Positions 9,528 to 19,528 of a DNA stretch of 64,000 nucleotides are shown here, piece after piece. Numbering within the stretch: the stretch's first letter is position 1; the number at the start of each line of letters is the position of its first letter. Below the pieces are notes generated by a model. That model did no database searches, had not been told where the DNA came from, and saw nothing but the letters and a program-made list of their open reading frames with translations. The DNA comes from Candidatus Dojkabacteria bacterium (GTDB lineage Bacteria > Patescibacteriota > Dojkabacteria > B142 > OLB20), in NCBI GenBank assembly GCA_030583785.1, contig CP129475.1, forward strand, positions 351,559 to 415,558, in the 5' to 3' direction. The position numbers and the translations under genes are program-made.

Positions 9528-10560
9528 CTAGACTGGAAATACTTACCCATTCCTCATCGCTACCAATGCCTCCACCCACGGGACCAAATTCAACCCCAGG
9601 CATACCGAGCTTTACAAAATGCCTGACATCTGAAGACCCTTGAGCTGCGTACAATTTACATTTCTTATTGGTTATCGATTTTGTAATCCTCTGCAGAGAT
9701 TTTATGTGCATATTCTCTGGATCAACATCCATGGCAGGCTCATTAGTTAGTATGTTCAACTTTGCTCCTTTGGGTAAGAGCTTTTTGATCACTTTTAAAA
9801 TCCGGTCGTGATCACCAGGGACGAATCTAATGTCCATGCCAAGACAGGCATGGTCCGGAACTTTATTGAAAGCTTTATTCACAGTATTTAGTTTAGAAAA
9901 ATTGATTGTTGTGATCCAATCTTTCTTTACTGGATTTTTTATCTTACCTGATAACTTAGTTATAAAATCAGACGCTTGAAAGAGGGCATTATTTCCTTTC
10001 CATGGGTATGCTCCATGTGCGGATTTGCCTTTAAATTCAACCTCAAGCCACATTATTCCTTTTGCCTGATTGACGATATCCAGATTTGTAGGTTCTGATG
10101 AAATAACAAATTCAGCCGTTAAACCATTCTTTAACTGATAAGCAGTTCCATCAAAGCCACCTATTTCTTCATCTGTTGTAACCTGCAAAGCAAGAGGGTA
10201 GTCAAGATTTTTTGCATACTCCTTAAATACAAGGACACAACAAGCGGCATTTGCCTTCATGTCCATAGCACCAGCTCCGTAAAGTTTGTCTCCGATAATT
10301 TTCGGACTGTATTGATTATCCTTTGCCGGAATAATATCTAAATGGATATTAAGAACAAATTTAAAGTTTCTAAAACCCTTTGCCTGATTATGAATAAGTG
10401 AACTTATTTGTCCATTGGCAAAAAAATCTTCAATTGTATATTCGGCTAAAGATGACTTTACAAGGTTTAGAGCCTGTTTAAGATGGACTTTAGAATTAGG
10501 AATCGTTGGAATCCTAATCAGTTCTCTAGCTAGTTTTAAAATGTCATGCTGCTTTCGCAT
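9478..10560 (-). CDS. M20 family metallopeptidase (ArgE/DapE-like), paralog A
   Basis: 360 aa: HLDIIPAKD, GAGAMDMKANAA, TTDEEIGG. The ATG at 10560 overlaps the end of the 690-aa gene. Confidence 0.8.
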   Translation of the reverse strand: MRKQHDILKLARELIRIPTIPNSKVHLKQALNLVKSSLAEYTIEDFFANGQISSLIHNQAKGFRNFKFVLNIHLDIIPAKDNQYSPKIIGDKLYGAGAMDMKANAACCVLVFKEYAKNLDYPLALQVTTDEEIGGFDGTAYQLKNGLTAEFVISSEPTNLDIVNQAKGIMWLEVEFKGKSAHGAYPWKGNNALFQASDFITKLSGKIKNPVKKDWITTINFSKLNTVNKAFNKVPDHACLGMDIRFVPGDHDRILKVIKKLLPKGAKLNILTNEPAMDVDPENMHIKSLQRITKSITNKKCKLYAAQGSSDVRHFVKLGMPGVEFGPVGGGIGSDEEWVSISSLDDYYEIIKTFLLDATN

Positions 10561-12616
10561 TTCGTGAAGAACTTACAATTATTATGTAGAATGCGTCGCC
10601 ATTTCCATGAATTGTATTCTTTTTTGCTTCTTGATGGTCCATTTCCAAATGGTTAGCAAATCCTGATGCGAACTCGTATTCTCTAATATTTGGATTATAC
10701 AAGAAAAACAGCCTGTCTATACGACCATATTCTATTGGTGAAAGTATAGGTGATTCATTTTCATCTAATTCACCTCTCAATACTGGTCCACTATCTAGAA
10801 TCCTTAAGGCAGGTACTTCATTCTGCAACACATATATTCCGCGTTCTTGCAAACTGGTCAATAAGTCTCGTAATACTTTTGGACTTGTTATAGAACCTCT
10901 AATATGGCCATATGCTCCATATGAAAGTACCATCGGCTTCAGACGTAGATTAAGATTATTCGGGTCATCAATATTTTGACCCTTGCTTGCTAGGTAATTT
11001 CTTAACTTATCCGTAAAAATAGATGCCAAATCTTCTTGTTCTAGGCCTTCTATTACCTGTGCAATGCTATCGGCTATACTGATAGATTCTGTTTTTGTAA
11101 CCAAATCTAAAAGATCATCAATTTGTTTGATAATAGCTAATCTGTCTGAGTCATCCGTCACATCAGTACGATCCAAGAAATAATTCATGGCGTCCTTAAA
11201 AGAAGTTCCAATATTTCTATGCGCAATTGCCTTGAAAACGCTTAGCAGATTTGCAGCATTAGGAAACCTTCCCTGCAATTCATCTAATGAATAGCCCGCC
11301 TTTTCTAATGCAGGATTTGGTTTTCCGCTTTTAACTGCACCTAACAGGTTTTTTACTCTTACAATTTTTCTATCAAGTAAGTTGGTTTCTGCAATTGTAA
11401 GAAGTTCCTCAGAGAACAAATCGTCTAAACCTCTGACAATAACAGCCATTCCTAGCTCTTCCATGTATTCCTTTGTATCATTAAGCGGTAGAGCTTCGCT
11501 TCCTGGAAGATCAACATTTGGTGTTAATGATCTTTCTCTCAACAAACGGAGCAACTTCTCTTGTTGATAAATATCTGGAAGATCGAGTTCGGCATTCGGA
11601 TTAATGAGCTTACTTACAGGAAGAGAAGAGCGCACATAAAAGATTGTATCATCGGCTTCCGCAAGCTTTCTTTCGGCTTCCTCTATTGCACTAATATCAC
11701 CATCAAAACGAGCAAGATCTAAGATAATTTTGCATTTCTGAATATTTCTAAGATGCGCTTCTAAATCAGAAGGGCTCATTACCTGATCAAATCCTATTCT
11801 TTCTCGCGTAAGCTCCTCAGAGGCAAGTTCACCTGGTTGCAACATCATTTCTTCTGCTCGAATTGCATTGTATTTTTTTTCTGTAAGGGTAGCTACGGCA
11901 ATCTTTTTACCAGTGTATTCTCTAATACACTCCAGACTGCCATCAAACGCAGCCATCATTTCAGAATTCCCGTTTTCATCCATAAAAATCATGCGCATGA
12001 AATTGTACCTAGCAAGAGAGTTTTCAAACTCAAAAACTCTTTCCATCAGCACTTGGTCAAGAACATCTTCTGGTAGCTGATCAGCAATATCTAAAAATGC
12101 ATCAGGTAAAGCAGCCATATCAATCTGCAATCCCCAGTTGACAAAATTACCCTCTGGATCATTGCCTGCTGCATATGCCATATCTTGTCCACTAACTTCT
12201 CGCTCTCTTTGAACCAAACGGTTGTAAGCCCGGGCATAACGGTTAATAGACCTTGTTATCGAAGACAGCACGCTTTCTGGGTACTCGACTACACCTTTAC
12301 CTGACTCTCTGTCCTCTTGCTCATGTTTGAAAGAATCTGGAACAAGATCCCCATTTTTTAGCATTTTATATGCTGGTATTCTGTCATTAGTAACAATTGG
12401 ATTTAATACAACCGCTTGAACTCTATTCGCCTCAAGGAATGCTCGAGCATGTTCAATTGTGAATTCTGCGGGCTGAAGAGGTTCATTACCTGCTAATAGT
12501 CTTTCGTCTAACATTGATTCTTCATAAAAAATAAAAAACCTCCCTTGCGGGAGGTTGATTTGTAAAACATATTTCTTTGAACTAATTAACCTCCCGTGCA
12601 GAATTAGCCCATACAA
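10544..12616 (-). CDS. Large conserved protein of unknown function, first gene of the operon. The track start is a TTG; ATG 12514 (MLDERLL...) is the more probable start.
   Basis: 690-aa ORF with no recognisable catalytic signature. The first 34 codons overlap a hairpin and T-run structure, so they are more likely 5' leader than coding. Confidence 0.7.
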   Translation of the reverse strand: MYGLILHGRLISSKKYVLQINLPQGRFFIFYEESMLDERLLAGNEPLQPAEFTIEHARAFLEANRVQAVVLNPIVTNDRIPAYKMLKNGDLVPDSFKHEQEDRESGKGVVEYPESVLSSITRSINRYARAYNRLVQREREVSGQDMAYAAGNDPEGNFVNWGLQIDMAALPDAFLDIADQLPEDVLDQVLMERVFEFENSLARYNFMRMIFMDENGNSEMMAAFDGSLECIREYTGKKIAVATLTEKKYNAIRAEEMMLQPGELASEELTRERIGFDQVMSPSDLEAHLRNIQKCKIILDLARFDGDISAIEEAERKLAEADDTIFYVRSSLPVSKLINPNAELDLPDIYQQEKLLRLLRERSLTPNVDLPGSEALPLNDTKEYMEELGMAVIVRGLDDLFSEELLTIAETNLLDRKIVRVKNLLGAVKSGKPNPALEKAGYSLDELQGRFPNAANLLSVFKAIAHRNIGTSFKDAMNYFLDRTDVTDDSDRLAIIKQIDDLLDLVTKTESISIADSIAQVIEGLEQEDLASIFTDKLRNYLASKGQNIDDPNNLNLRLKPMVLSYGAYGHIRGSITSPKVLRDLLTSLQERGIYVLQNEVPALRILDSGPVLRGELDENESPILSPIEYGRIDRLFFLYNPNIREYEFASGFANHLEMDHQEAKKNTIHGNGDAFYIIIVSSSRNAKAA
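12515..12600 (-). promoter_or_regulatory. Candidate transcription attenuator or leader (terminator/antiterminator)
   Basis: The minus strand reads ...ACGGGAGGTTAATT...(about 34 nt)...AACCTCCC GCAA GGGAGGTT TTTTATTTTTT, followed by ATG 12514. The middle segment can pair with either flanking GGGAGGTT copy. The 3' pairing, followed by the U-run, forms an intrinsic terminator. Confidence 0.45.
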
Positions 12617-12812
12617 AAATGAGCATAAAAATATAAAAGAGGTTTTGGTTCACAGAAATTTTAGACATGCGGTTTTTATAACACAGATATATTTATATGG
12701 CAAGAAAAAAAGTAAAAAATCCAAAGTGGAGTAGGGTAGAACATGCCAATACTAACCGAAACATAACCGAATAAAATCCTCCCCGTACGACGACCTATAA
12801 TTATCAATATCC

Positions 12813-12846
12813 TTGATGTATTTTTTATCGTGATTTTTGTTATAAT
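12813..12846 (+). promoter_or_regulatory. Putative promoter of tRNA-Ser
   Basis: An extended -10 (TGtTATAAT) lies at 12838-12846, about 19 nt upstream of the mature tRNA 5' end. A TTGATG -35-like element lies at 12813-12818, with a long spacer. Confidence 0.35.
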
Positions 12847-12864
12847 TCATAACCTACTTAAAAA

Positions 12865-12954
<90 letters not shown>

Positions 12955-13006
12955 TAACTATTTTGCAGAAGCTACTTTCTGTTCTCAGATTTTTAGATTT
13001 ATATTT

Positions 13007-13669
13007 ATGAATAAGGCTACTAAAGGCATAGTAACCAGAGTTAGAAATACATTTTCACCTGAGTCACTAATATTTCTTTCGATAATCTTCGTTCTCGCAC
13101 TTTTACATTATTTTTATCATGACATTTTTGTTCTTGGTCATAGCAACAGCATTTTCTACCTCGACGAAGAGTTTTCTCTAGGTACGCTTTTTTCATGCAT
13201 ATTTGCATCATTCGGCGCCTTACTCGCCTTAAAACACTTTAGACACACTAAAGCAATAAGTAGCCTAGTCTGGTCAATTTTATTATTTGGGTTGTGCCTA
13301 GATGAATATCTTTCTATTCACGAGTATCTCAACGAGCTTATAAAACGAATCAGCAATCAAGAGTCCCTGTTTGTAAACATGGCGCATTATTCTTGGGTAA
13401 TCAGTTTTGGAATAGGACTTGCTGGAATTTTGTTTATATTCTTTATACAGCAACTTCGCTCAACAAAATCCAGAGCACACAAAAATCTGCTTATTGCAGC
13501 TGTAATTTGTTACAGTTTGGTTTTACCTCTAGAGGTTTTTGGTGGTCAAAGGTTTGGTAGAGAATCATACATTTATTTCATTCTAGTTGAAGAAGTTCTA
13601 GAAATGCTTGGTACCGTATTTCTGGTTGAGTTATTCATTCGTAAAAATGCAGAAGAAAGCATCGCTTAA
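13007..13669 (+). CDS. Hypothetical polytopic membrane protein
   Basis: 220 aa with several hydrophobic helices (LIFLSIIFVLALL, LFSCIFASFGALLAL, VISFGIGLAGILFIFFI...). Confidence 0.6.
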   Translation: MNKATKGIVTRVRNTFSPESLIFLSIIFVLALLHYFYHDIFVLGHSNSIFYLDEEFSLGTLFSCIFASFGALLALKHFRHTKAISSLVWSILLFGLCLDEYLSIHEYLNELIKRISNQESLFVNMAHYSWVISFGIGLAGILFIFFIQQLRSTKSRAHKNLLIAAVICYSLVLPLEVFGGQRFGRESYIYFILVEEVLEMLGTVFLVELFIRKNAEESIA

Positions 13670-14027
13670 CGATATTGTTGCTATTATTCATAACTTCAAT
13701 GAAAAGAGAGGTTGGGAATCAAACGATCCAAACCAACTAATTAGTTCTATCCTAATTGAACTTGCAGAGCTTGCAGAACATTTCCAATGGAAGGACCATT
13801 ATCCAGAATTATCAAAAGAAGAAAGGGTAAGCCTTGGATACGAATTTGTTGATGTAATCTTTTACCTATTTCGCTTGGCAGACAAAGCAGGTGTTGATAT
13901 TGAAGCAAGTTTCTTTTCCAAATTGCCTCTACTTGAAAAAAAGTTCCCCATTGGTCAGACAGATGATGAGCATTTCAAGATCAAGAAAGATTACCGCCAA
14001 ACCGGAAAGAACCGTCTCTACAGGTAG
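13647..14027 (+). CDS. MazG-like nucleotide pyrophosphohydrolase (small all-alpha NTP-PPase)
   Basis: MQKKASLNDIV...ERGWESNDPNQLISSILIELAELAEHFQWK...EFVDVIFYLFRLADKAGVDIE. The EExxE/D motif pattern is typical of the MazG/dCTPase-like family. The track ORF starts upstream at 13608 and overlaps the previous gene. Confidence 0.6.
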   Translation: MQKKASLNDIVAIIHNFNEKRGWESNDPNQLISSILIELAELAEHFQWKDHYPELSKEERVSLGYEFVDVIFYLFRLADKAGVDIEASFFSKLPLLEKKFPIGQTDDEHFKIKKDYRQTGKNRLYR

Positions 14028-14115
14028 ATTCAATAGTTACTCTCACAATATCACTTGATAAAATCGGATATTAAAGGTAGAGTAGTATTACTCCCCAGTT
14101 TAAAACGCACATATC

Positions 14116-15009
14116 TTGTCTGTTCCAGATCTACAAAAGTTTACGGCAAAGATGATCAATTCGCTGCAATTACTAACCGCGATTCTAGATTCATTGCCTC
14201 AATGTGTTCGAATTAAAATGGATGGCAAAGAAATATATAAGAATAGTCATCCACATAAAGATAAAACTACATTTATTACAAGAACTATTCCTGATTTTCC
14301 AGAACTAACCCTAGAGATTGAGGATTTTACAAAAATTGATTCCATAATTGACAAACGAATTTTTGACATTTTGAGTCATCAACTAAGAACGCCCCTAACT
14401 TCAATTAACTGGTACAGCGAGATACTAAATGAAAAAGAGCACAACTCACAGGAGGCTCAAGAAATACAAAAATCCGCCAGAAACATGACACGAATCGTTG
14501 CAGATCTACTCTTATCTATAGACCTTGAATTAGGGACATATAGGGTAGAGAACACGAAGAATAATTTGAGAGATTCGATATTATTGGCAATCAGGAATCT
14601 AGACTACAAAGATAAGATCGTTAATATCAGGATGAGTTCAAAAAAATCCGAGAACTACTTTGTCAACTGCGATAAAAAACTTCTTGAAGCGAGTTTATAC
14701 CACATAATGCAGAATTCAATTGATCATTCGACAAAAAATAAGGTGGAGATTCGGCTTGACCTTCATAAAGAAAGTAACAACTGCGCATCACTCACAATCA
14801 AAGATGATGGTACACCTCTCACATCAATGGACTTGCAGACCCTGTCGAGTAGATATTCTAGAGGAGAGGAGTCTAGGTTCTCTGTTCCGAATGGTAGCGG
14901 ACTAGGGCTATATATCGTTTCCAACTTTATGCGCCTTTCACAAGGCAAGCTTGAAATTTCAGCAAACAAAGAAATTGGATGGAGCGTTACACTTTCCTTT
15001 ACAACTTGA
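14116..15009 (+). CDS. Sensor histidine kinase, soluble with no TM segment
   Basis: 297 aa. It has an H-box (SHQLRTPLTSINWYSEIL), an N-box (YHIMQNSIDHS) and a G-box (NGSGLGLYIVSNFMRLSQGKLEI). No hydrophobic helices are visible. Confidence 0.8.
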   Translation: MSVPDLQKFTAKMINSLQLLTAILDSLPQCVRIKMDGKEIYKNSHPHKDKTTFITRTIPDFPELTLEIEDFTKIDSIIDKRIFDILSHQLRTPLTSINWYSEILNEKEHNSQEAQEIQKSARNMTRIVADLLLSIDLELGTYRVENTKNNLRDSILLAIRNLDYKDKIVNIRMSSKKSENYFVNCDKKLLEASLYHIMQNSIDHSTKNKVEIRLDLHKESNNCASLTIKDDGTPLTSMDLQTLSSRYSRGEESRFSVPNGSGLGLYIVSNFMRLSQGKLEISANKEIGWSVTLSFTT

Positions 15010-15048
15010 ACTTGTCAGAATTTATCTAAGTGTGTAGTATGAATTTAT

Positions 15049-15459
15049 ATGAAACCCTATTCAATATTAATAGTCGAAGATGAAGCTCCATTAAACAAGG
15101 CTCTGGTTTCCAGATTCTTAAATCTTGGTTATACAGTTTATGAATCAAATAATGGAACAGACGCTCTTAAACTAGCCTTTGAACACAAACCCACAGTTAT
15201 TCTTCTTGATCTTAATATGCCTAAAATGGATGGGGTAACTTTCCTAGAATATCTTCGCGAAGACAGTTGGGGGAAAACCGCCTTGGTTCTTGTCTTAACC
15301 AATTTAGATCCAGCTCCAGAAATGATTGAAAGTCTCTCTGTAACTAAGCCAGCCTACTACTTGGTAAAAGCAGAGTGGGAACTCACTGATATCGTCACAA
15401 AGGTCGAAGAAATAATATCTACGAACTTAGATTCACCCGAAACAGAACCCCAAGTCTAG
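15049..15459 (+). CDS. Single-domain response regulator (CheY-like receiver only)
   Basis: 136 aa: ILIVEDEAPLNKAL...ILLDLNMPKMDG...LVLVLTN. There is no output domain. Confidence 0.8.
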   Translation: MKPYSILIVEDEAPLNKALVSRFLNLGYTVYESNNGTDALKLAFEHKPTVILLDLNMPKMDGVTFLEYLREDSWGKTALVLVLTNLDPAPEMIESLSVTKPAYYLVKAEWELTDIVTKVEEIISTNLDSPETEPQV

Positions 15460-15521
15460 TAAGTGCGAGAGACCAAAAAACCCCCAATAGTGCTATAATA
15501 TCACAGATATATATTGCGGTT

Positions 15522-17234
15522 ATGGCTGAACCTTTAACAGATCAAAATACTAACCATCAAGAACATTTATTTGCACCAAGAAACATTAGGGAGCTTATCG
15601 ATCATTTCCTAGAAGCAGGCAAAACCATTACATCTGCAGACTCCATTTACAGTGTGTATGACCATGCCCAAGTGATGATTAATTTCATCAAAACTAATGA
15701 CGGGAAAATAATCGAGGCGGAGGAGCTGGCAATAGTCATATCTGGTATTATAAAACTTAATAGTGAACGAACCCAAAATAATGATTCAGATTCTTGGATC
15801 CAGAATTATATCCATTCGGTAGGTTCTCTCAGAGATGAAGATTCAAAACATACTGCATATTATGCTCTGGGGATTGCACTTGCGAAAGAACAGGCCAAGT
15901 TATGTGTTGAAGGATGGAAATGCAAGTATCTTGATCCTCAAATTCCCCTAGCTGAACACAATTCTCGTCTTGGTATTACACAACAAGAGGTATCTGATCT
16001 GATATTAGGCCAAGTTCCAATCCCAAATGAGAAACTAATGGATTTCAGATTGCCAGTGTTTGCAGACATAATATTACAGGTATTAAACGAAAATGATCTT
16101 GAGGCAATTCGTCTTCTTGCTCTCGAGAATCTAGCATCGCTTACTCTTGCAGACGAAAGGAATCCTAGACTTAACTGGATGAATGCACAAGAGGCACTCG
16201 GCATGCATTCAACTATGATGGAGATGCTCGGCGAGGATGGTTTAGCCATGGAACTTAGAAACAGAGCTCTCATGCAACTCGTACCAGAGCATTTCTTGCA
16301 AAAAGCTTTAGATCATATTTCTTCTGTAGAAGAACTTTACCAAAAATCGAATAGAATTAACGCCATTTTGAAAGATTCATGGAAAAAGACTATGAACAGG
16401 TTACAACTAACAGAAGCTGGAATTCACATACAAACCAGAATCAAAACAGTTGGCTCCATTGCAGAGAAACTTAGGACAGGCAGACATATTTCTGATCTAA
16501 TTGCATCTCGTGTTATTGTACCTGAACATAACGAACCAGCTCTTCTTGTAGCAGATTATGTTATGAGTTTAATTAGTTCAATAAATCGAATACCAGATCT
16601 AAGAGAGCAAGTTGAGTTCGAACATCCAAAAGGCGAGGCTCCCATTACTATCAATTACGGAAGTCGGTTAGATATTGAAAGAGCACTAGAACATATCAAG
16701 AGTTATTTTTATATTCGTAAAGAATCAATCCAACAAACTGAAACAGGCTTTAGAATTGAGTATCAAGCAAGAGGCAGAACCATTATAATCGAGTTATCTA
16801 CGGCCAGAACACCTAGAATACCAGGTTACGAAGACCAAATTGGTTACCAAGCTGCGCATATAGTTACAAAATTTGCTGATCAAAAGTGTTTCGAAATGCA
16901 AGTAGTCGATAGATTTGCACATGATAACAATACACATGGCTATCCTTCACATGCATTATATAAAGCAGCACTTTCAGCTGGAACAACTGGTGATAAGTCA
17001 GAAACGCAAAGTTTCGTAGATGAATTTCTAGAAAGAACGAAAGATATCAATCAAAGAAAAGCAATGCTTTATACTGAGGATTCAGGTAATAGGCGTAACC
17101 CACGATGGCTAAGAGTTGTTACTCTACAACAATTACAAAGCTTATTATTGGAGCACAATTCTCAAATTCCAAACTCAGTAATTGCAAGACTTTGTCCAGC
17201 TGATTATCAAATAATCACAGGGCAACAACTATAA
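15522..17234 (+). CDS. RelA/SpoT-homologue (RSH) protein with a (p)ppGpp-synthetase-type nucleotidyltransferase domain and a divergent N-terminal region; it lacks the TGS/ACT C-terminal domains
   Basis: 570 aa. The SYNTH G-loop is RIKTVGSIAEKLRTGR, followed by DLIASRVIV. A ...CFEMQVVDRFAHDNNTHGYPSHALYKAA segment aligns to the EIQIRT...MH..AE.G.AAHW.YK motif of Rel/RelA. An unusually long insertion of about 100 aa lies between these motifs. Confidence 0.6.
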   Translation: MAEPLTDQNTNHQEHLFAPRNIRELIDHFLEAGKTITSADSIYSVYDHAQVMINFIKTNDGKIIEAEELAIVISGIIKLNSERTQNNDSDSWIQNYIHSVGSLRDEDSKHTAYYALGIALAKEQAKLCVEGWKCKYLDPQIPLAEHNSRLGITQQEVSDLILGQVPIPNEKLMDFRLPVFADIILQVLNENDLEAIRLLALENLASLTLADERNPRLNWMNAQEALGMHSTMMEMLGEDGLAMELRNRALMQLVPEHFLQKALDHISSVEELYQKSNRINAILKDSWKKTMNRLQLTEAGIHIQTRIKTVGSIAEKLRTGRHISDLIASRVIVPEHNEPALLVADYVMSLISSINRIPDLREQVEFEHPKGEAPITINYGSRLDIERALEHIKSYFYIRKESIQQTETGFRIEYQARGRTIIIELSTARTPRIPGYEDQIGYQAAHIVTKFADQKCFEMQVVDRFAHDNNTHGYPSHALYKAALSAGTTGDKSETQSFVDEFLERTKDINQRKAMLYTEDSGNRRNPRWLRVVTLQQLQSLLLEHNSQIPNSVIARLCPADYQIITGQQL

Positions 17235-17309
17235 GATACACAATCTCAAGCTGCATAATGTCCCCTAGTAATTACGGGGCGTTGTAAAATCTCTTGAAAA
17301 AGGATAATC

Positions 17310-18569
17310 TTGTATAAGATCAAGTTTAATACTATGCGTAAACCTAGCAAAATTATCCTGCTCCTATTACTCAGTTTTCTAATTGCATCACCAGTATTTG
17401 CGCAGAGTTTGGATTCAAGTAATTATTCTATATTGGATGCCACGGTTGATAGTGGAGGAGGTCAAATGACAAGCACAAATTATGCTGGTGTAATTTCTGT
17501 AGGCAACCCAACGGCAGACACTAGAATGACAAGTGGTAGTTATGCCTTGGGCTCTGGATTTCCAAATGGCATACAAGCAAATGTTCCAGAACTGATCTGT
17601 TTTGAAACCGACACTGATTCAAACTCAACCTTATGTCAAAGCTTTCCAAATGCAAATGGAGCACAAGGAGAATGCGGTTATCCGGGCTGTTACGATCGAG
17701 CAAAATTAGAAATCGACCCCTCAGCCAATCCTGTTGACACATTATATTTAATAAGAATCGAAGACCTTGAAACCAACACAATTTATTATCTACAAAGTGA
17801 TCACACTCTCGATACAACATACGAAATTGCCGACTTTTTTACTAAATGTTCCCTTGAAGGTTTTGATGCCAACGACCCTGACTGCGATGAAGATACTGAT
17901 CCCAACTGGGACGAAACCCTGCAAAGATACAATGTTTTTGGTTTAGAACCAGACAGAGAGTATTCTGTATCTGTAAGTGCACTAAGCGGAGACTACACTG
18001 GCTCTGCATTCAGCGAACCTCTTAACTCAACAACAGAAAGCCCTTCCATACTATTTGACCTTGATGTGTCCGAAACTGATTCCAATTCGGACAGCCCTTA
18101 CGAGCTTGATCTGGGCGAGTTAATATATGTAGCAGTGACTACTGCACCGGCTAGGATCTGGGTGGATCTAAATACCAATGCAGTGAATGGTGCAAATATC
18201 TATATAAGAAGTGCCAATGGTGCACTTGTATCCAACCAAACAGGAGAAACTATTCCTTCAGAGACAGAAGACCTCGCCCTCGATAGTAATGCGAACGGAG
18301 GTTATGGAATTAAAGTCGATTCTGTCACGCAGACAGAACTCGGCCCATTGCTTGCAAATAGTTTATACGATACAACTGGTGCCCAAGAAGTGGGTGTATT
18401 ATCAATCAATAATACATTACTATTCTACACAGAAAGCTTGAACAACAACTCTGGTCCCATTCTTCAAGGAAGAGGTGGAGTTGCAGTTAAAGCCAGATCG
18501 TCCATTACCGACATTGCATCTGGTGATCTTAACGATCAATTGACTTTTATTTGCATAGGAAACTATTGA
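17310..18569 (+). CDS. Secreted protein, hypothetical
   Basis: 419 aa. There is a signal peptide after an internal Met (MRKPSKIILLLLLSFLIASPVFAQS), so the probable start is ATG 17334. It is Cys-containing and rich in D/N/T. Confidence 0.6.
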   Translation: MYKIKFNTMRKPSKIILLLLLSFLIASPVFAQSLDSSNYSILDATVDSGGGQMTSTNYAGVISVGNPTADTRMTSGSYALGSGFPNGIQANVPELICFETDTDSNSTLCQSFPNANGAQGECGYPGCYDRAKLEIDPSANPVDTLYLIRIEDLETNTIYYLQSDHTLDTTYEIADFFTKCSLEGFDANDPDCDEDTDPNWDETLQRYNVFGLEPDREYSVSVSALSGDYTGSAFSEPLNSTTESPSILFDLDVSETDSNSDSPYELDLGELIYVAVTTAPARIWVDLNTNAVNGANIYIRSANGALVSNQTGETIPSETEDLALDSNANGGYGIKVDSVTQTELGPLLANSLYDTTGAQEVGVLSINNTLLFYTESLNNNSGPILQGRGGVAVKARSSITDIASGDLNDQLTFICIGNY

Positions 18570-18570
18570 T

Positions 18571-19449
18571 ATGAACAAACTGACGATTGTTTTTTCTGTT
18601 CTTGCCTTGCTTTTTTCGAGTTTCGCTACAAAAGCTACTGCTCAAGAAGTAAGCGGTCTTCTTGTTTCGCCTGCTGTAACAATTGTTCAAGAGGAGGATC
18701 TTGGAAGCACAGTCGGCATCAAACTAGTTAATAATAGCTCAAGCGAAGTAACAATCAAGCCGACAATTAAGACTGTCGAAAGAGGAGAGGACGGAAAAGT
18801 AATCAACATTGAAGACGGTAGTCAAGACTCAATACTTGATTTCTCAACTGAAATAATAACCCTTACCCCTTCTGGTGAATATACTCTTCCTGTCAGAATT
18901 AAAATCGAAGAATACTCAGGTTCTGGATATCCTGCAGTTGCATTTACCTTGCTTTCAGAAAAGGGTGACCAAACTGTTGACATAACAAAAGAGTTGTATA
19001 GCGTTTTTCTTATCCAGAATATTAAGGGGAACCTAGGGATAGATAGTTCCATAGAAGTCAACTCAAAACCCATTTTAATCTCTCCCGAACTCACTATTTC
19101 GGGTCAAGTAATCAACTCTGGTACGAAATTCTTTAACCCTAGCGGGACCATGCGATTGTATAAAGGAAAGACATTAATCAACGAGCAGCAGATAACGACT
19201 CAAATTGAAGGTCTATTATTTGCTTCGCAACAGAAACCATTTAGTTCAGTAATACAGTTACCAGGAAACATTTTAGAAAGGCTAGGTGAGTATACACTAG
19301 AAACCAGAATCCAGCCGTCACCTTTTGATCAAACTCATGTTACAAAGGTTCATTTCTACCATGTACCGGTTGAATATTTTGCAATTATTATCCCCATTCT
19401 GTTAATTACCATTCTTTCTGTAAGCTTACTAAAAGGTAAAAAAAGATAG
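18571..19449 (+). CDS. Secreted protein with a C-terminal TM anchor and basic tail, hypothetical
   Basis: 292 aa. N-terminal signal MNKLTIVFSVLALLFSSFATKATA and a C-terminal AIIIPILLITILSVSLLKGKKR. Confidence 0.6.
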   Translation: MNKLTIVFSVLALLFSSFATKATAQEVSGLLVSPAVTIVQEEDLGSTVGIKLVNNSSSEVTIKPTIKTVERGEDGKVINIEDGSQDSILDFSTEIITLTPSGEYTLPVRIKIEEYSGSGYPAVAFTLLSEKGDQTVDITKELYSVFLIQNIKGNLGIDSSIEVNSKPILISPELTISGQVINSGTKFFNPSGTMRLYKGKTLINEQQITTQIEGLLFASQQKPFSSVIQLPGNILERLGEYTLETRIQPSPFDQTHVTKVHFYHVPVEYFAIIIPILLITILSVSLLKGKKR

Positions 19450-19528
19450 CCAATAACCTCTAAAAACTTGACCAGTGTTCAGGTTTTCTCTACACTTTTA
19501 ACAAGCACTACTATTATTTAGAAGCCTT

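What the first reader, a model, noticed from the sequence alone, without database searches (positions are those of the whole stretch)
13647..17234. Candidate alarmone-signalling module: MazG-like NTP pyrophosphohydrolase, soluble histidine kinase, receiver-only response regulator and RSH (ppGpp-synthetase domain) protein
The four co-directional genes have short gaps. The kinase has no membrane anchor. The response regulator has no output domain, which suggests it acts by protein-protein interaction. The next gene carries a RelA/SpoT synthetase domain (G-loop RIKTVGSIAEKLRTGR and an ExQIRT-like EMQVVD) but lacks the TGS/ACT ribosome-sensing domains. MazG-type pyrophosphohydrolases are known to influence (p)ppGpp pools. 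A plausible wiring is that a phosphorelay controls alarmone synthesis instead of ribosome sensing, which would be unusual.
Basis: partly seen in the sequence, partly recalled or inferred. Interest (0 to 1): 0.7.

Follow-up and report, generated by a model that had tools for sequence, protein, structure and literature searches.

The report
Kinase-linked, tail-less alarmone synthetase homologue
A tiny-genome (CPR, candidate division WS6) bacterium carries a very diverged stress-alarmone (RelA/SpoT-type) enzyme that lacks the usual ribosome-sensing tail. It sits, in six related lineages, directly behind a soluble sensor kinase and an output-less response regulator, so phosphorylation signalling may control alarmone synthesis, though this is inferred from gene order only.

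Summary
There are four co-directional genes: a MazG-like gene (13647-14027), a soluble histidine kinase (14116-15009), a receiver-only response regulator (15049-15459) and a 570-aa RelA/SpoT homologue (RSH, 15522-17234).

The 570-aa protein is a real RSH, not a generic nucleotidyltransferase:
- Profile-profile comparison with long RSHs gives 99.4% probability, E 2e-21.
- It has the two-domain hydrolase (HD) + synthetase (SYNTH) catalytic core, no TGS/ACT tail, and an 85-aa helical C-terminus.
- All synthetase catalytic residues are kept, but the hydrolase metal ligands are lost (HD->SG, D->A), in this genome only.

It belongs to a very rare, unannotated CPR family: 18 representatives among 1.84 billion proteins.

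The order kinase->regulator->RSH is conserved in six WS6 lineages, although the RSH is only 23-26% identical between them. It is absent from ten more distant family members. A conserved extended -10 promoter lies directly upstream of the RSH gene.

The MazG-like gene is a dCTP-pyrophosphatase-1-type enzyme and is not a conserved part of the block.

Direct control of the synthetase by the phosphorylated regulator is plausible and would be new, but it rests on synteny alone.

The parts
13647..14027 (+). MazG-like / dCTP-pyrophosphatase-1-like all-alpha NTP pyrophosphohydrolase (126 aa). Neighbour, probably not part of the module.
   Evidence: Pfam MazG-like 27.4 bits vs cut-off 27. Best solved relative is dCTP pyrophosphatase 1, 7mu5, E 1.5e-10. 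E41xxE44...E66xxD69 present. 60% identical to the OLB20 orthologue, which lies three genes upstream of the HK there. No match in L004/L005.
14056..14064 (+). Extended -10-like element TGATAAAAT upstream of the kinase gene (candidate promoter of the HK-RR pair).
   Evidence: Pattern scan. Also part of a 9/12 sigma-70-like site. Not tested for conservation.
14116..15009 (+). Soluble histidine kinase (297 aa from TTG 14116; possibly starts at ATG 14152). About 80-aa N-terminal region of unknown fold, then DHp (H88) and the catalytic ATP-binding domain.
   Evidence: HisKA 42.6 bits and HATPase_c 49 bits. H88 in SHQLRTPL, N200, G2 box GSGLGL 260-265. No TM segment. Orthologues in L001, L003, L004, L005 at 24-34% identity; the full-length ones (L001, L004, L005) are all soluble.
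15049..15459 (+). Receiver-only response regulator (136 aa).
   Evidence: Response_reg 60.4 bits, the only domain. E10, D11, D54, T84, Y104, K107 present. 46-55% identical to orthologues in L001, L003, L004, L005. The alpha4-beta5-alpha5 face (LTNL..P...PAYYLxKAEW) is invariant. Closest solved: stand-alone receiver RR468 of T. maritima, 3dge.
15491..15499 (+). Extended -10 promoter element TGCTATAAT, 31 nt upstream of the RSH start codon.
   Evidence: TGnTATAAT followed by ATATAT is conserved upstream of the RSH gene in all six syntenic loci (alignment A4). Only 12 such elements occur in the whole window on both strands.
15522..17234 (+). 570-aa RSH without the regulatory C-terminal domains (pseudo-hydrolase + synthetase + helical tail).
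15576..16400 (+). HD-fold (hydrolase-like) domain, aa ~19-293, catalytically degenerate.
16419..16976 (+). SYNTH (pyrophosphokinase) domain, aa ~300-485, with a ~107-aa insertion (aa 334-440; nt 16521-16841).
16977..17231 (+). 85-aa alpha-helical C-terminal tail that takes the place of the TGS/ACT domains.
   Evidence: Helices 492-517, 532-544, 551-557 and 560-566 in the model. Weakly conserved across the family. No Pfam hit.

Best explanation
SHOWN:
- Gene 15522-17234 encodes a genuine but extremely diverged RelA/SpoT homologue from a rare family found so far only in CPR-type genomes (candidate division WS6 and Saccharibacteria).
- It keeps the two-domain HD+SYNTH catalytic core of long RSHs. 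An 85-aa helical tail replaces the ribosome/tRNA-sensing C-terminal half.
- In this genome the hydrolase metal ligands are gone while every synthetase catalytic residue is kept. It should therefore act only as a nucleotide 3'-pyrophosphokinase, as RelA does with its dead HD domain.
- The gene lies in ordinary core-chromosome context.
- In six WS6 lineages it sits immediately downstream of a soluble histidine kinase and a receiver-only response regulator. It also has its own conserved extended -10 promoter.

INFERRED:
- The kinase senses a cytoplasmic cue through its ~80-aa N-terminal region and phosphorylates D54 of the regulator.
- The phosphorylated receiver has no DNA-binding or enzymatic output. 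It binds the RSH through its invariant alpha4-beta5-alpha5 face and switches synthetase activity. This would supply the regulatory input that the missing C-terminal domains provide in Rel/RelA.
- The product is most likely (p)ppGpp. However, the acceptor-binding region is remodelled, so a different acceptor cannot be excluded.
- The MazG-like gene is a dCTP-pyrophosphatase-type house-cleaning enzyme that happens to be adjacent.
For: RSH identity:
- Pfam RelA_SpoT is above the gathering score. 12 of 18 family members hit RelA_SpoT and 3 hit the RSH-type HD_4.
- The family profile finds canonical long RSHs at E 1e-12.
- hhalign 99.4%, E 2e-21 over aa 19-484.

Residue states.

Core-chromosome context: PheRS, PBP1, TyrRS, RecG, UppP.

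Coupling to the two-component pair:
- HK->RR->RSH order is seen in the window, L001/L002 (WS6 OLB20), L003, L004, L005 and L013.
- RSH identity between these is 23-46%, while genes upstream of the HK differ completely.
- The RSH is the only cytoplasmic protein in the conserved block downstream of the regulator. The next four genes encode secreted or surface proteins.
- The regulator has all phospho-switch residues and an invariant output face.
- Small single-domain proteins are known to regulate Rel through its catalytic half. One example is DarB; PDB 8acu is the top structural hit (PMC7900238).
Against: - Coupling rests on gene order only.
- The four surface-protein genes downstream are syntenic in the same loci at 41-72% identity. 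General synteny within WS6 could therefore explain the adjacency.
- Ten more distant family members (L006-L012, L014-L016) have no neighbouring HK or RR, so the family does not need this input.
- The RSH gene has its own conserved promoter.
- Stand-alone receivers 36-47% identical to this one occur in other metagenomic contigs without an RSH nearby.
- The Arg of the canonical ExQIRT motif and the RxKD/EXDD acceptor motif are absent family-wide. The product is therefore uncertain.
Confidence: 0.45

Rival explanations
1. Adjacency without coupling. The HK and receiver-only regulator act on some other cytoplasmic target, as CheY, DivK or Spo0F-type receivers do. The RSH is regulated independently, through its own promoter, its C-terminal tail or the insertion in SYNTH. 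Gene order is kept only because WS6 genomes are broadly syntenic here.
For: - A conserved extended -10 promoter lies directly upstream of the RSH gene in all six loci.
- The downstream surface-protein genes are equally syntenic.
- Ten family members lack a neighbouring HK/RR.
- Related stand-alone receivers occur elsewhere without an RSH.
Against: - The conserved block begins exactly at the HK, and everything upstream varies.
- HK, RR and RSH stay contiguous at 23-26% RSH identity.
- No other cytoplasmic candidate target is encoded in the block.
Confidence: 0.4
2. The MazG-like enzyme is the alarmone-degrading partner. It would make up for the dead hydrolase domain of this RSH, so synthesis (RSH) and degradation (MazG) form one module.
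For: - The HD catalytic residues are lost only in the window protein.
- In this genome the MazG-like gene sits directly upstream of the HK.
- A MazG-like orthologue also lies nearby in WS6 OLB20.
Against: - Its closest solved relatives are dCTP pyrophosphatase 1 / RS21-C6 (E 1.5e-10).
- In OLB20 the RSH keeps its HD residues, yet the MazG-like gene is still present and is separated from the HK by two unrelated genes.
- L004 and L005 have no match to it near the HK.
- At 60% identity it evolves like a housekeeping gene, unlike the HK (30%) and the RSH (26%).
Confidence: 0.1
3. The RSH-like protein is a toxic effector, like toxSAS/CapRel (tRNA 3'-pyrophosphorylation) or Tas1/FaRel ((pp)pApp synthesis). 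It would be held in check by its fused HD domain or tail and used for defence or growth arrest.
For: - No ribosome-sensing domains.
- Very fast sequence evolution relative to its neighbours.
- The acceptor-binding motifs are non-canonical.
Against: - Core-chromosome context with stable synteny.
- No adjacent small antitoxin gene.
- No PADLOC hit for the RSH and no phage homologue.
- The best structural matches by far are housekeeping long-RSH catalytic regions with both domains aligned.
Confidence: 0.07
4. The window copy is a decaying or non-catalytic pseudoenzyme. It has lost the hydrolase residues, is the most divergent family member, and may no longer make any nucleotide.
For: - S38, S74/G75 and A205 replace the HD ligands.
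- It is only 23-26% identical to every other member, while OLB20-type members are 41-46% identical to one another.
Against: - The 570-codon ORF is intact, and the only close database relative (P0001, candidate division WS6 bacterium OLB21) is 99% identical over the full 570 aa.
- Every SYNTH catalytic residue that is invariant in the family is retained.
- The model is confident over both domains.
- A dead HD beside an active SYNTH is the normal state of RelA.
Confidence: 0.08
5. The SYNTH-like motifs are spurious and the protein is a generic nucleotidyltransferase.
For: The Pfam score is marginal (27.8 vs 27), and phmmer against PDB gave only E 0.5.
Against: - hhalign E 2e-21 across both RSH domains.
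- 12 of 18 family members hit RelA_SpoT, best E 3.4e-11.
Confidence: 0.01

Closest known systems
Long RSH enzymes Rel / RelA / SpoT, N-terminal catalytic half (e.g. B. subtilis Rel 8acu/6yxa, T. thermophilus Rel 6s2t, RelSeq 1vj7)
   Different: - No TGS, helical, zinc-finger/CC or ACT/RRM domains, only an 85-aa helical tail.
- About 12% sequence identity.
- A ~107-aa insertion inside SYNTH.
- No ED pair after the HD motif in any family member.
- The Arg of ExQIRT and the RxKD/EXDD acceptor motif are missing.
- In the window protein the HD ligands are lost altogether.
RelA of Beta/Gammaproteobacteria (monofunctional synthetase with a degenerate HD domain)
   Same: An inactive HD-fold domain is retained next to an intact synthetase domain.
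   Different: RelA is activated on the ribosome through its C-terminal domains, and a separate hydrolase (SpoT) is present. Here there are no such domains, and whether the genome has another hydrolase is unknown.
Small alarmone synthetases (RelQ, RelP, RelV) and toxSAS (FaRel, CapRel, Tas1)
   Different: These are single-domain (or differently fused) proteins. toxSAS sit in two- or three-gene toxin-antitoxin operons (PMC7229694). The window protein carries an HD-fold domain, lies in core-chromosome synteny and has no antitoxin-like neighbour.
Phosphorylation-dependent protein regulators of RSH enzymes: EIIA-Ntr~P and HPr~P acting on Caulobacter SpoT/Rel (PMC4848567, PMC6344854); also Rsd-SpoT (PMC6055147), DarB-Rel (PMC7900238) and NirD-RelA (PMC8321558)
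   Same: A small single-domain protein, in the PTS-Ntr case in its phosphorylated form, binds an RSH and shifts the balance between synthesis and hydrolysis. This is the mechanism proposed here.
   Different: - The phosphorelay here would be a classical His-Asp two-component pair, not a PTS.
- EIIA-Ntr~P acts through the ACT domain, which this protein lacks.
- The 2019 review of RSH regulation lists two-component input only at the level of relA transcription (NtrC; PMC6606846).
Stand-alone receiver response regulators acting by protein-protein contact (CheY, DivK, Spo0F, CpdR, MrrA; T. maritima RR468)
   Same: Receiver domain only, full set of phospho-switch residues, conserved alpha4-beta5-alpha5 face.
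   Different: No known member targets an RSH enzyme. The target here is inferred, not shown.
dCTP pyrophosphatase 1 / RS21-C6 and other MazG-like all-alpha NTP pyrophosphohydrolases
   Same: The 126-aa protein aligns over ~100 residues with DCTPP1 (E 1.5e-10) and has the ExxE...ExxD metal motif.
   Different: Nothing ties it to (p)ppGpp. Its adjacency to the kinase is not conserved.

Membership tests
RSH (RelA/SpoT homologue) superfamily | SYNTH domain recognisable by sequence profile | tested here: met
   Pfam RelA_SpoT 27.8 bits vs cut-off 27, aa 306-482. hhalign of the family profile vs long RSH 99.4%, E 2e-21. A 4-sequence long-RSH HMM hits this ORF at 3.6e-9 and nothing else in the window. 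12 of 18 family members hit RelA_SpoT.
RSH (RelA/SpoT homologue) superfamily | SYNTH fold | tested here: met
RSH (RelA/SpoT homologue) superfamily | Synthetase catalytic residues: RxKxxxSxxxK (ATP phosphates), Asp of D-x4-R (Mg2+), G-loop Tyr and His of GYxxxH, Glu of ExQ, HxxYK | tested here: met
   R306, K308, S312, K316, D325, R330, G441, Y442, H446, E458, Q460, H477, Y480, K481.
RSH (RelA/SpoT homologue) superfamily | Canonical acceptor-side motifs: Arg of ExQIRT and the RxKD / EXDD motif before the G-loop | tested here: not met
   V462/D463 replace R/T. No family member has Arg there. The RxKD/EXDD region is replaced by a ~107-aa insertion with no matching motif.
RSH (RelA/SpoT homologue) superfamily | Nucleotide 3'-pyrophosphokinase activity | not testable with these tools
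   Needs an enzyme assay.
Bifunctional Rel/SpoT-type hydrolase (HD) domain | HD fold N-terminal to SYNTH | tested here: met
Bifunctional Rel/SpoT-type hydrolase (HD) domain | Metal-binding and catalytic residues R...H...HD..ED...D(RLHN) | tested here: not met
   Window protein: S38, H48, S74, G75, no ED, A205, S206. Other family members keep R/H/HD/D-N, but none has the ED pair.
Long RSH (Rel, RelA, SpoT) | C-terminal regulatory region (TGS, helical, ZFD/CC, ACT/RRM) | tested here: not met
   No TGS/ACT Pfam hit. The protein ends 85 aa after SYNTH with four short helices. The long RSHs found carry PF02824 and PF13291, which this protein lacks.
Small alarmone synthetase / toxSAS toxin-antitoxin | Single SYNTH domain; for toxSAS, a conserved bi- or tricistronic operon with an antitoxin (PMC7229694) | tested here: not met
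   The protein has an N-terminal HD-fold domain of ~290 aa. Its neighbours are HK/RR and surface proteins, with no small antitoxin-like ORF. No PADLOC hit.
Two-component system (HisKA-type kinase + receiver) | H-box His, N box and G2 box in the kinase; acidic pair, phospho-Asp, Thr, aromatic switch and Lys in the receiver | tested here: met
   HK: H88 (SHQLRTPL), N200, GSGLGL 260-265. The G1 box is degenerate (DDGTP). RR: E10, D11, D54, T84, Y104, K107.
Two-component system (HisKA-type kinase + receiver) | Phosphotransfer from this kinase to this receiver | not testable with these tools
   Only adjacency (39-nt gap) and co-conservation in five loci.
MazG / all-alpha NTP pyrophosphohydrolase | All-alpha NTP-PPase profile and ExxE...ExxD metal motif | tested here: met
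   Pfam MazG-like 27.4 bits vs 27. DCTPP1 7mu5 E 1.5e-10. E41xxE44 and E66xxD69.
   The nearest characterised relatives are dCTP pyrophosphatases. Its position relative to the HK is not conserved.
Single operon (four co-transcribed genes) | Co-directional, short gaps, no internal terminator or promoter | tested here: inconclusive
   Co-directional, gaps of 39-88 nt, no terminator-like site. However, there are extended -10 elements before the HK (14056) and before the RSH (15491), and the latter is conserved in six loci. Transcript data are needed.

The most novel reading that the evidence does not exclude
In WS6 (Dojkabacteria) bacteria, a classical His-Asp two-component pair controls alarmone synthesis post-translationally. 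The phosphorylated receiver-only regulator docks on an RSH that has lost its C-terminal regulatory domains and switches its synthetase on or off. This would replace sensing of uncharged tRNA on the ribosome. It would be the first response-regulator-gated RSH, and the first described stringent-response-type circuit in the candidate phyla radiation. The remodelled acceptor site leaves open that the product is not (p)ppGpp.
Probability: 0.3. Interest if true: 0.75.

Novelty: new variant of a known kind. Interest (0 to 1): 0.55.

Why it matters
How RSH enzymes are switched is the central question of stringent-response biology. Known inputs are the ribosome, acyl carrier protein, PTS proteins and a few small binding proteins. 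Two-component systems are known to act only on transcription (PMC6606846).

A receiver domain that directly gates an RSH lacking those regulatory domains would add a new input class. It would also show how ultra-small, host-dependent CPR bacteria couple an environmental or host cue to growth control.

Independently of the wiring, the family itself is of interest:
- It is an unannotated RSH lineage, labelled 'hypothetical protein' in the public records seen here.
- Standard domain searches barely detect it.
- It has a large insertion in the synthetase domain and a non-canonical acceptor site, which makes it a candidate for altered substrate specificity.

Tried and rejected
- Single-sequence AF2 gave pLDDT 41 and was discarded.
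- phmmer of the SYNTH half alone against PDB found nothing. The full-length search gave only E 0.5.
- The word-indexed homologue search found only the protein itself. With the family profile it found only canonical long RSHs. Family members came solely from the exhaustive HMMER search.
- The search for related loci with the 18-sequence alignment failed for lack of a conserved stretch. A sub-alignment gave three loci, two titled as Saccharibacteria MAGs.
- The reciprocal test, which looked for the regulator's relatives in metagenomes and checked for an adjacent RSH, returned mostly generic receivers. None was next to an RSH family member, and no close (>50%) orthologue was recovered. It was therefore not decisive.
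- A neighbour-joining tree of the family was star-like and could not show whether the kinase-linked members are monophyletic.
- No phage homologue, no Rfam element such as a riboswitch in 12400-17700 apart from tRNA-Ser, and no PADLOC hit for the RSH.
- The upstream 220-aa membrane protein was considered as a split sensor for the soluble kinase. It was rejected as a conserved component because no homologue precedes the HK in L001, L004 or L005.
- The AFDB fold library was unavailable.

Full report
**Observation**

- a 126-aa MazG-like protein, 13647-14027
- a 297-aa histidine kinase (HK), 14116-15009 (TTG start; an ATG at 14152 is an alternative)
- a 136-aa response regulator (RR), 15049-15459
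- a 570-aa protein, 15522-17234

The gaps are 88, 39 and 62 nt. No terminator-like hairpin lies on the + strand between 12400 and 17600.

Pfam gives the following:
- MazG-like 27.4 bits (cut-off 27)
- HisKA 42.6 and HATPase_c 49 bits
- Response_reg 60.4 bits as the sole domain
- RelA_SpoT 27.8 bits (cut-off 27) over aa 306-482, with no TGS or ACT hit

The kinase has no hydrophobic segment. Directly upstream are tRNA-Ser (12865-12954) and a 220-aa multi-pass membrane protein gene (13007-13669) whose end overlaps the MazG start by 23 nt.

The wider window is ordinary core chromosome: PheRS alpha/beta, a class A PBP, two M20 peptidases, TyrRS, RecG and UppP. The nearest database protein is a hypothetical protein of candidate division WS6 bacterium OLB21 (99% identical).

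**What the 570-aa protein is**

The marginal Pfam hit is real.
- An exhaustive HMMER search of 1.84 billion representative proteins found only 18 relatives at E <= 1e-3, with 19-33% identity.
- Their alignment (A1) shows two conserved halves. The first is an N-terminal region with R.DG..HA, A..HD, AEV.DNLR.PN and WRDAQE. The second is a C-terminal region with R.K..GSI.EKL, PD.IG, GY.A.H, E.Q and SH..YKA.
- This family profile retrieves canonical long RSHs at E 1e-12.
- In a profile-profile comparison it aligns aa 19-484 with residues 19-363 of long RSHs, that is the whole hydrolase (HD) + synthetase (SYNTH) catalytic half, at 99.4% probability and E 2e-21.
- Of the 18 members, 12 hit Pfam RelA_SpoT individually and 3 hit the RSH-type HD_4.

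An AlphaFold2 model built on A1 is confident (pLDDT 86, pTM 0.86).
- Its 26 best Foldseek matches in the PDB are all catalytic regions of Rel, RelA or SpoT, with about 465 aligned columns.

**Anatomy and residue states**

- *SYNTH.* R306, K308, S312 and K316 (ATP-phosphate motif), D325 and R330, G441/Y442/H446 (G-loop), E458/Q460 and H477/Y480/K481 are all present. All except R330, Q460 and H477 are essentially invariant across the family.
- *HD.* Fifteen of the other 15 members with an N-terminus keep the first His of the dyad and 14 keep the Asp. Most also keep the upstream Arg/His and the downstream Asp-Asn. The window protein has S38, S74/G75 and A205/S206 at these positions. No family member has the Glu-Asp pair that follows HD in active (p)ppGpp hydrolases.
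- *Consequence.* In this genome the protein should be synthetase-only, like RelA with its degenerate HD domain (established knowledge of the RelA family).
- *Departures from canonical SYNTH.* The Arg of ExQIRT is absent family-wide. A ~107-aa insertion (aa 334-440) replaces the short segment that carries the RxKD/EXDD acceptor motif. The acceptor substrate is therefore less certain than the donor chemistry.
- *C-terminus.* After SYNTH there are only 85 residues, forming four helices, with no TGS, zinc-finger or ACT/RRM domains.

**The kinase, the regulator and the MazG-like gene**

- *Kinase.* It has H88 in a textbook H-box (SHQLRTPL), an N box, a degenerate G1 box and a good G2 box. An ~80-aa N-terminal region has no family match.
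- *Regulator.* It has E10/D11, D54, T84, Y104 and K107. Its closest solved relatives are stand-alone receivers such as T. maritima RR468.
- *MazG-like protein.* It aligns best with dCTP pyrophosphatase 1/RS21-C6 (E 1.5e-10) and carries ExxE...ExxD. Nothing links it to (p)ppGpp.

**Synteny**

Contigs encoding family members were retrieved and compared by tblastn.

Kinase-linked loci. The order HK -> receiver-only RR -> RSH is found in six lineages:
- the window
- WS6 OLB20 (L001, and the near-identical L002)
- L003
- L004, where the RR is frameshifted at an A-run
- L005
- L013, where only the RR C-terminus is on the contig

| Gene | Identity to the window |
|---|---|
| RSH | 23-26% |
| HK | 24-34% |
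| RR | 46-55% |
| Four secreted/surface-protein genes downstream | 41-72% (vs OLB20) |

 Across the loci that carry them, the downstream genes keep their order.

Genes upstream of the HK are unrelated between lineages:
- the window has the membrane protein and the MazG-like gene;
- OLB20 has the MazG-like gene plus two other genes;
- L004 has a 181-aa ORF;
- L005 has a divergent 580-aa gene.

The conserved block therefore starts at the HK. The MazG-like gene and the membrane protein are not part of it.

Unlinked loci. Ten more distant family members have no HK or RR nearby: L006-L012 and L014-L016, of which L014 and L015 are titled as Saccharibacteria MAGs.

Reciprocal test. A search for relatives of the regulator in metagenomes returned only 36-47% identical stand-alone receivers in other contexts. 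This shows that such receivers are common in CPR-like contigs, but it does not test the orthologues themselves.

**Transcription**

An extended -10 element (TGCTATAAT, 15491-15499) lies 31 nt before the RSH start codon. TGnTATAAT followed by ATATAT is conserved at the same place in all six loci, even though the RR-RSH spacer varies from about 60 to about 146 nt. Only 12 such elements occur in the whole window. Two others sit before tRNA-Ser and before the HK.

The likely units are therefore [tRNA-Ser, membrane protein, MazG-like], [HK, RR] and [RSH ...], with possible read-through. This weakens 'one operon' but not functional coupling. A receiver without a DNA-binding domain cannot act on that promoter directly.

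**Most likely mechanism**

Shown:
- a synthetase-competent RSH that lacks the regulatory C-terminal domains and has a dead hydrolase domain
- a functional-looking soluble HK and a receiver-only RR immediately upstream
- contiguity of the three genes across deep divergence within WS6
- the RSH as the only cytoplasmic protein in the conserved block downstream of the regulator

Inferred:
- The kinase senses a cytoplasmic signal and phosphorylates D54.
- The phosphorylated receiver binds the RSH through its invariant alpha4-beta5-alpha5 face (LTNL.P...PAYYLxKAEW) and switches synthetase activity. This would substitute for the missing ribosome-sensing domains.

Precedents for small proteins acting on RSH enzymes exist:
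- EIIA-Ntr~P and HPr~P on Caulobacter SpoT (PMC4848567, PMC6344854)
- Rsd on SpoT (PMC6055147)
- DarB on the Rel catalytic half (PMC7900238; 8acu is the top structural hit here)

A review of RSH regulation mentions two-component systems only as transcriptional regulators of relA (PMC6606846). My literature searches found no receiver-gated RSH and nothing on RSH enzymes in CPR bacteria.

I put about 0.35 on the direct RR-RSH coupling and above 0.9 on the RSH identity.

**Rivals**

- The main rival is adjacency without coupling (0.4). It is supported by the RSH gene's own promoter, the equally conserved downstream genes, and family members that lack a two-component neighbour.
- A MazG-as-hydrolase module (0.1), a toxSAS-like toxin (0.07) and a decaying pseudoenzyme (0.08) are each disfavoured by specific results given in the rival list.
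- The generic-nucleotidyltransferase reading is refuted.

**Novelty and verdict**

The protein is a new, very rare and unannotated lineage of a known superfamily. All named records seen here call it 'hypothetical protein'. Its domain state is new for this superfamily (no C-terminal regulatory domains, an insertion in SYNTH, no ED pair), and it has a conserved two-component neighbour in one CPR clade.

This makes it a new variant of a known kind.
- the enzyme identification and the synteny hold;
- the MazG link and the four-gene operon do not;
- the phosphorelay-to-alarmone wiring remains an attractive but untested inference.

Noticed in passing
window 25674-27665 (+): A 663-aa tyrosyl-tRNA synthetase (tRNA-synt_1b aa 287-575 plus S4) carries an N-terminal B3_4 domain (aa 67-191), the type of domain otherwise found in the PheRS beta editing region. 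This is an unusual fusion.
   Followed up: no
window 12682-12692 and 15502-15512 (+): The exact 11-mer CACAGATATAT occurs twice: about 170 nt upstream of tRNA-Ser, and between the conserved -10 element and the RSH start codon. Each copy lies just downstream of a TATAA(C/T). It may be a shared promoter or initial-transcribed element. With only two copies, chance is not excluded.
   Followed up: partly
window 12838-12846, 14056-14064, 15491-15499 (+): Extended -10 (TGnTA[TAC]AAT) elements precede tRNA-Ser, the kinase gene and the RSH gene. Only 12 occur in the 64-kb window on both strands, several of them close to gene starts.
   Followed up: partly
window 17310-25438 (+): A cluster of four secreted/surface proteins follows the RSH gene: 419 aa with an fn3 hit, 292 aa with a signal peptide and C-terminal anchor, 443 aa with two CarboxypepD_reg domains and TM segments, and a 1525-aa repeat-rich giant with no Pfam hit. 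It is syntenic in WS6 relatives at 41-72% identity to the OLB20 copies. This may be a cell-surface or attachment apparatus.
   Followed up: partly
window 10544-12616 (-): A 690-aa ORF with no Pfam or NCBIfam match, divergently oriented from the tRNA-Ser/membrane-protein unit. The similar-sized unannotated ORFs in L004 and L005 show no detectable similarity to it.
   Followed up: partly
window 13007-13669 (+): A 220-aa protein with five to six hydrophobic segments and very weak MASE8/DUF5658 similarity. Its stop overlaps the MazG-like start by 23 nt. No homologue precedes the kinase in related loci.
   Followed up: yes
window 14116-17234 vs L001: Rates are uneven across the block when the window is compared with WS6 OLB20. 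HK is 30% and RSH 26% identical, but RR is 52%, MazG-like 60% and the downstream genes 41-72%. The kinase and the RSH evolve much faster than their neighbours.
   Followed up: partly
L004 7559-7940: The response-regulator gene in this relative is split by a frameshift at an A-rich run (GAAAAAACAAAAG). This could be a sequencing error or a pseudogene.
   Followed up: no
P0018 (L009 167-2638): One distant family member (823 aa) has a ~300-aa C-terminal extension containing a second HD-like motif (ILHDYVESG ... ADRWQNH). This suggests an extra hydrolase-type domain fused after SYNTH.
   Followed up: no
L007 505-1257 (-) and L008 753-1526 (-): Two unlinked family members (P0013, P0008) each have a divergently oriented SIMPL-domain gene immediately upstream, a second recurring neighbour for this RSH family.
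   Followed up: no
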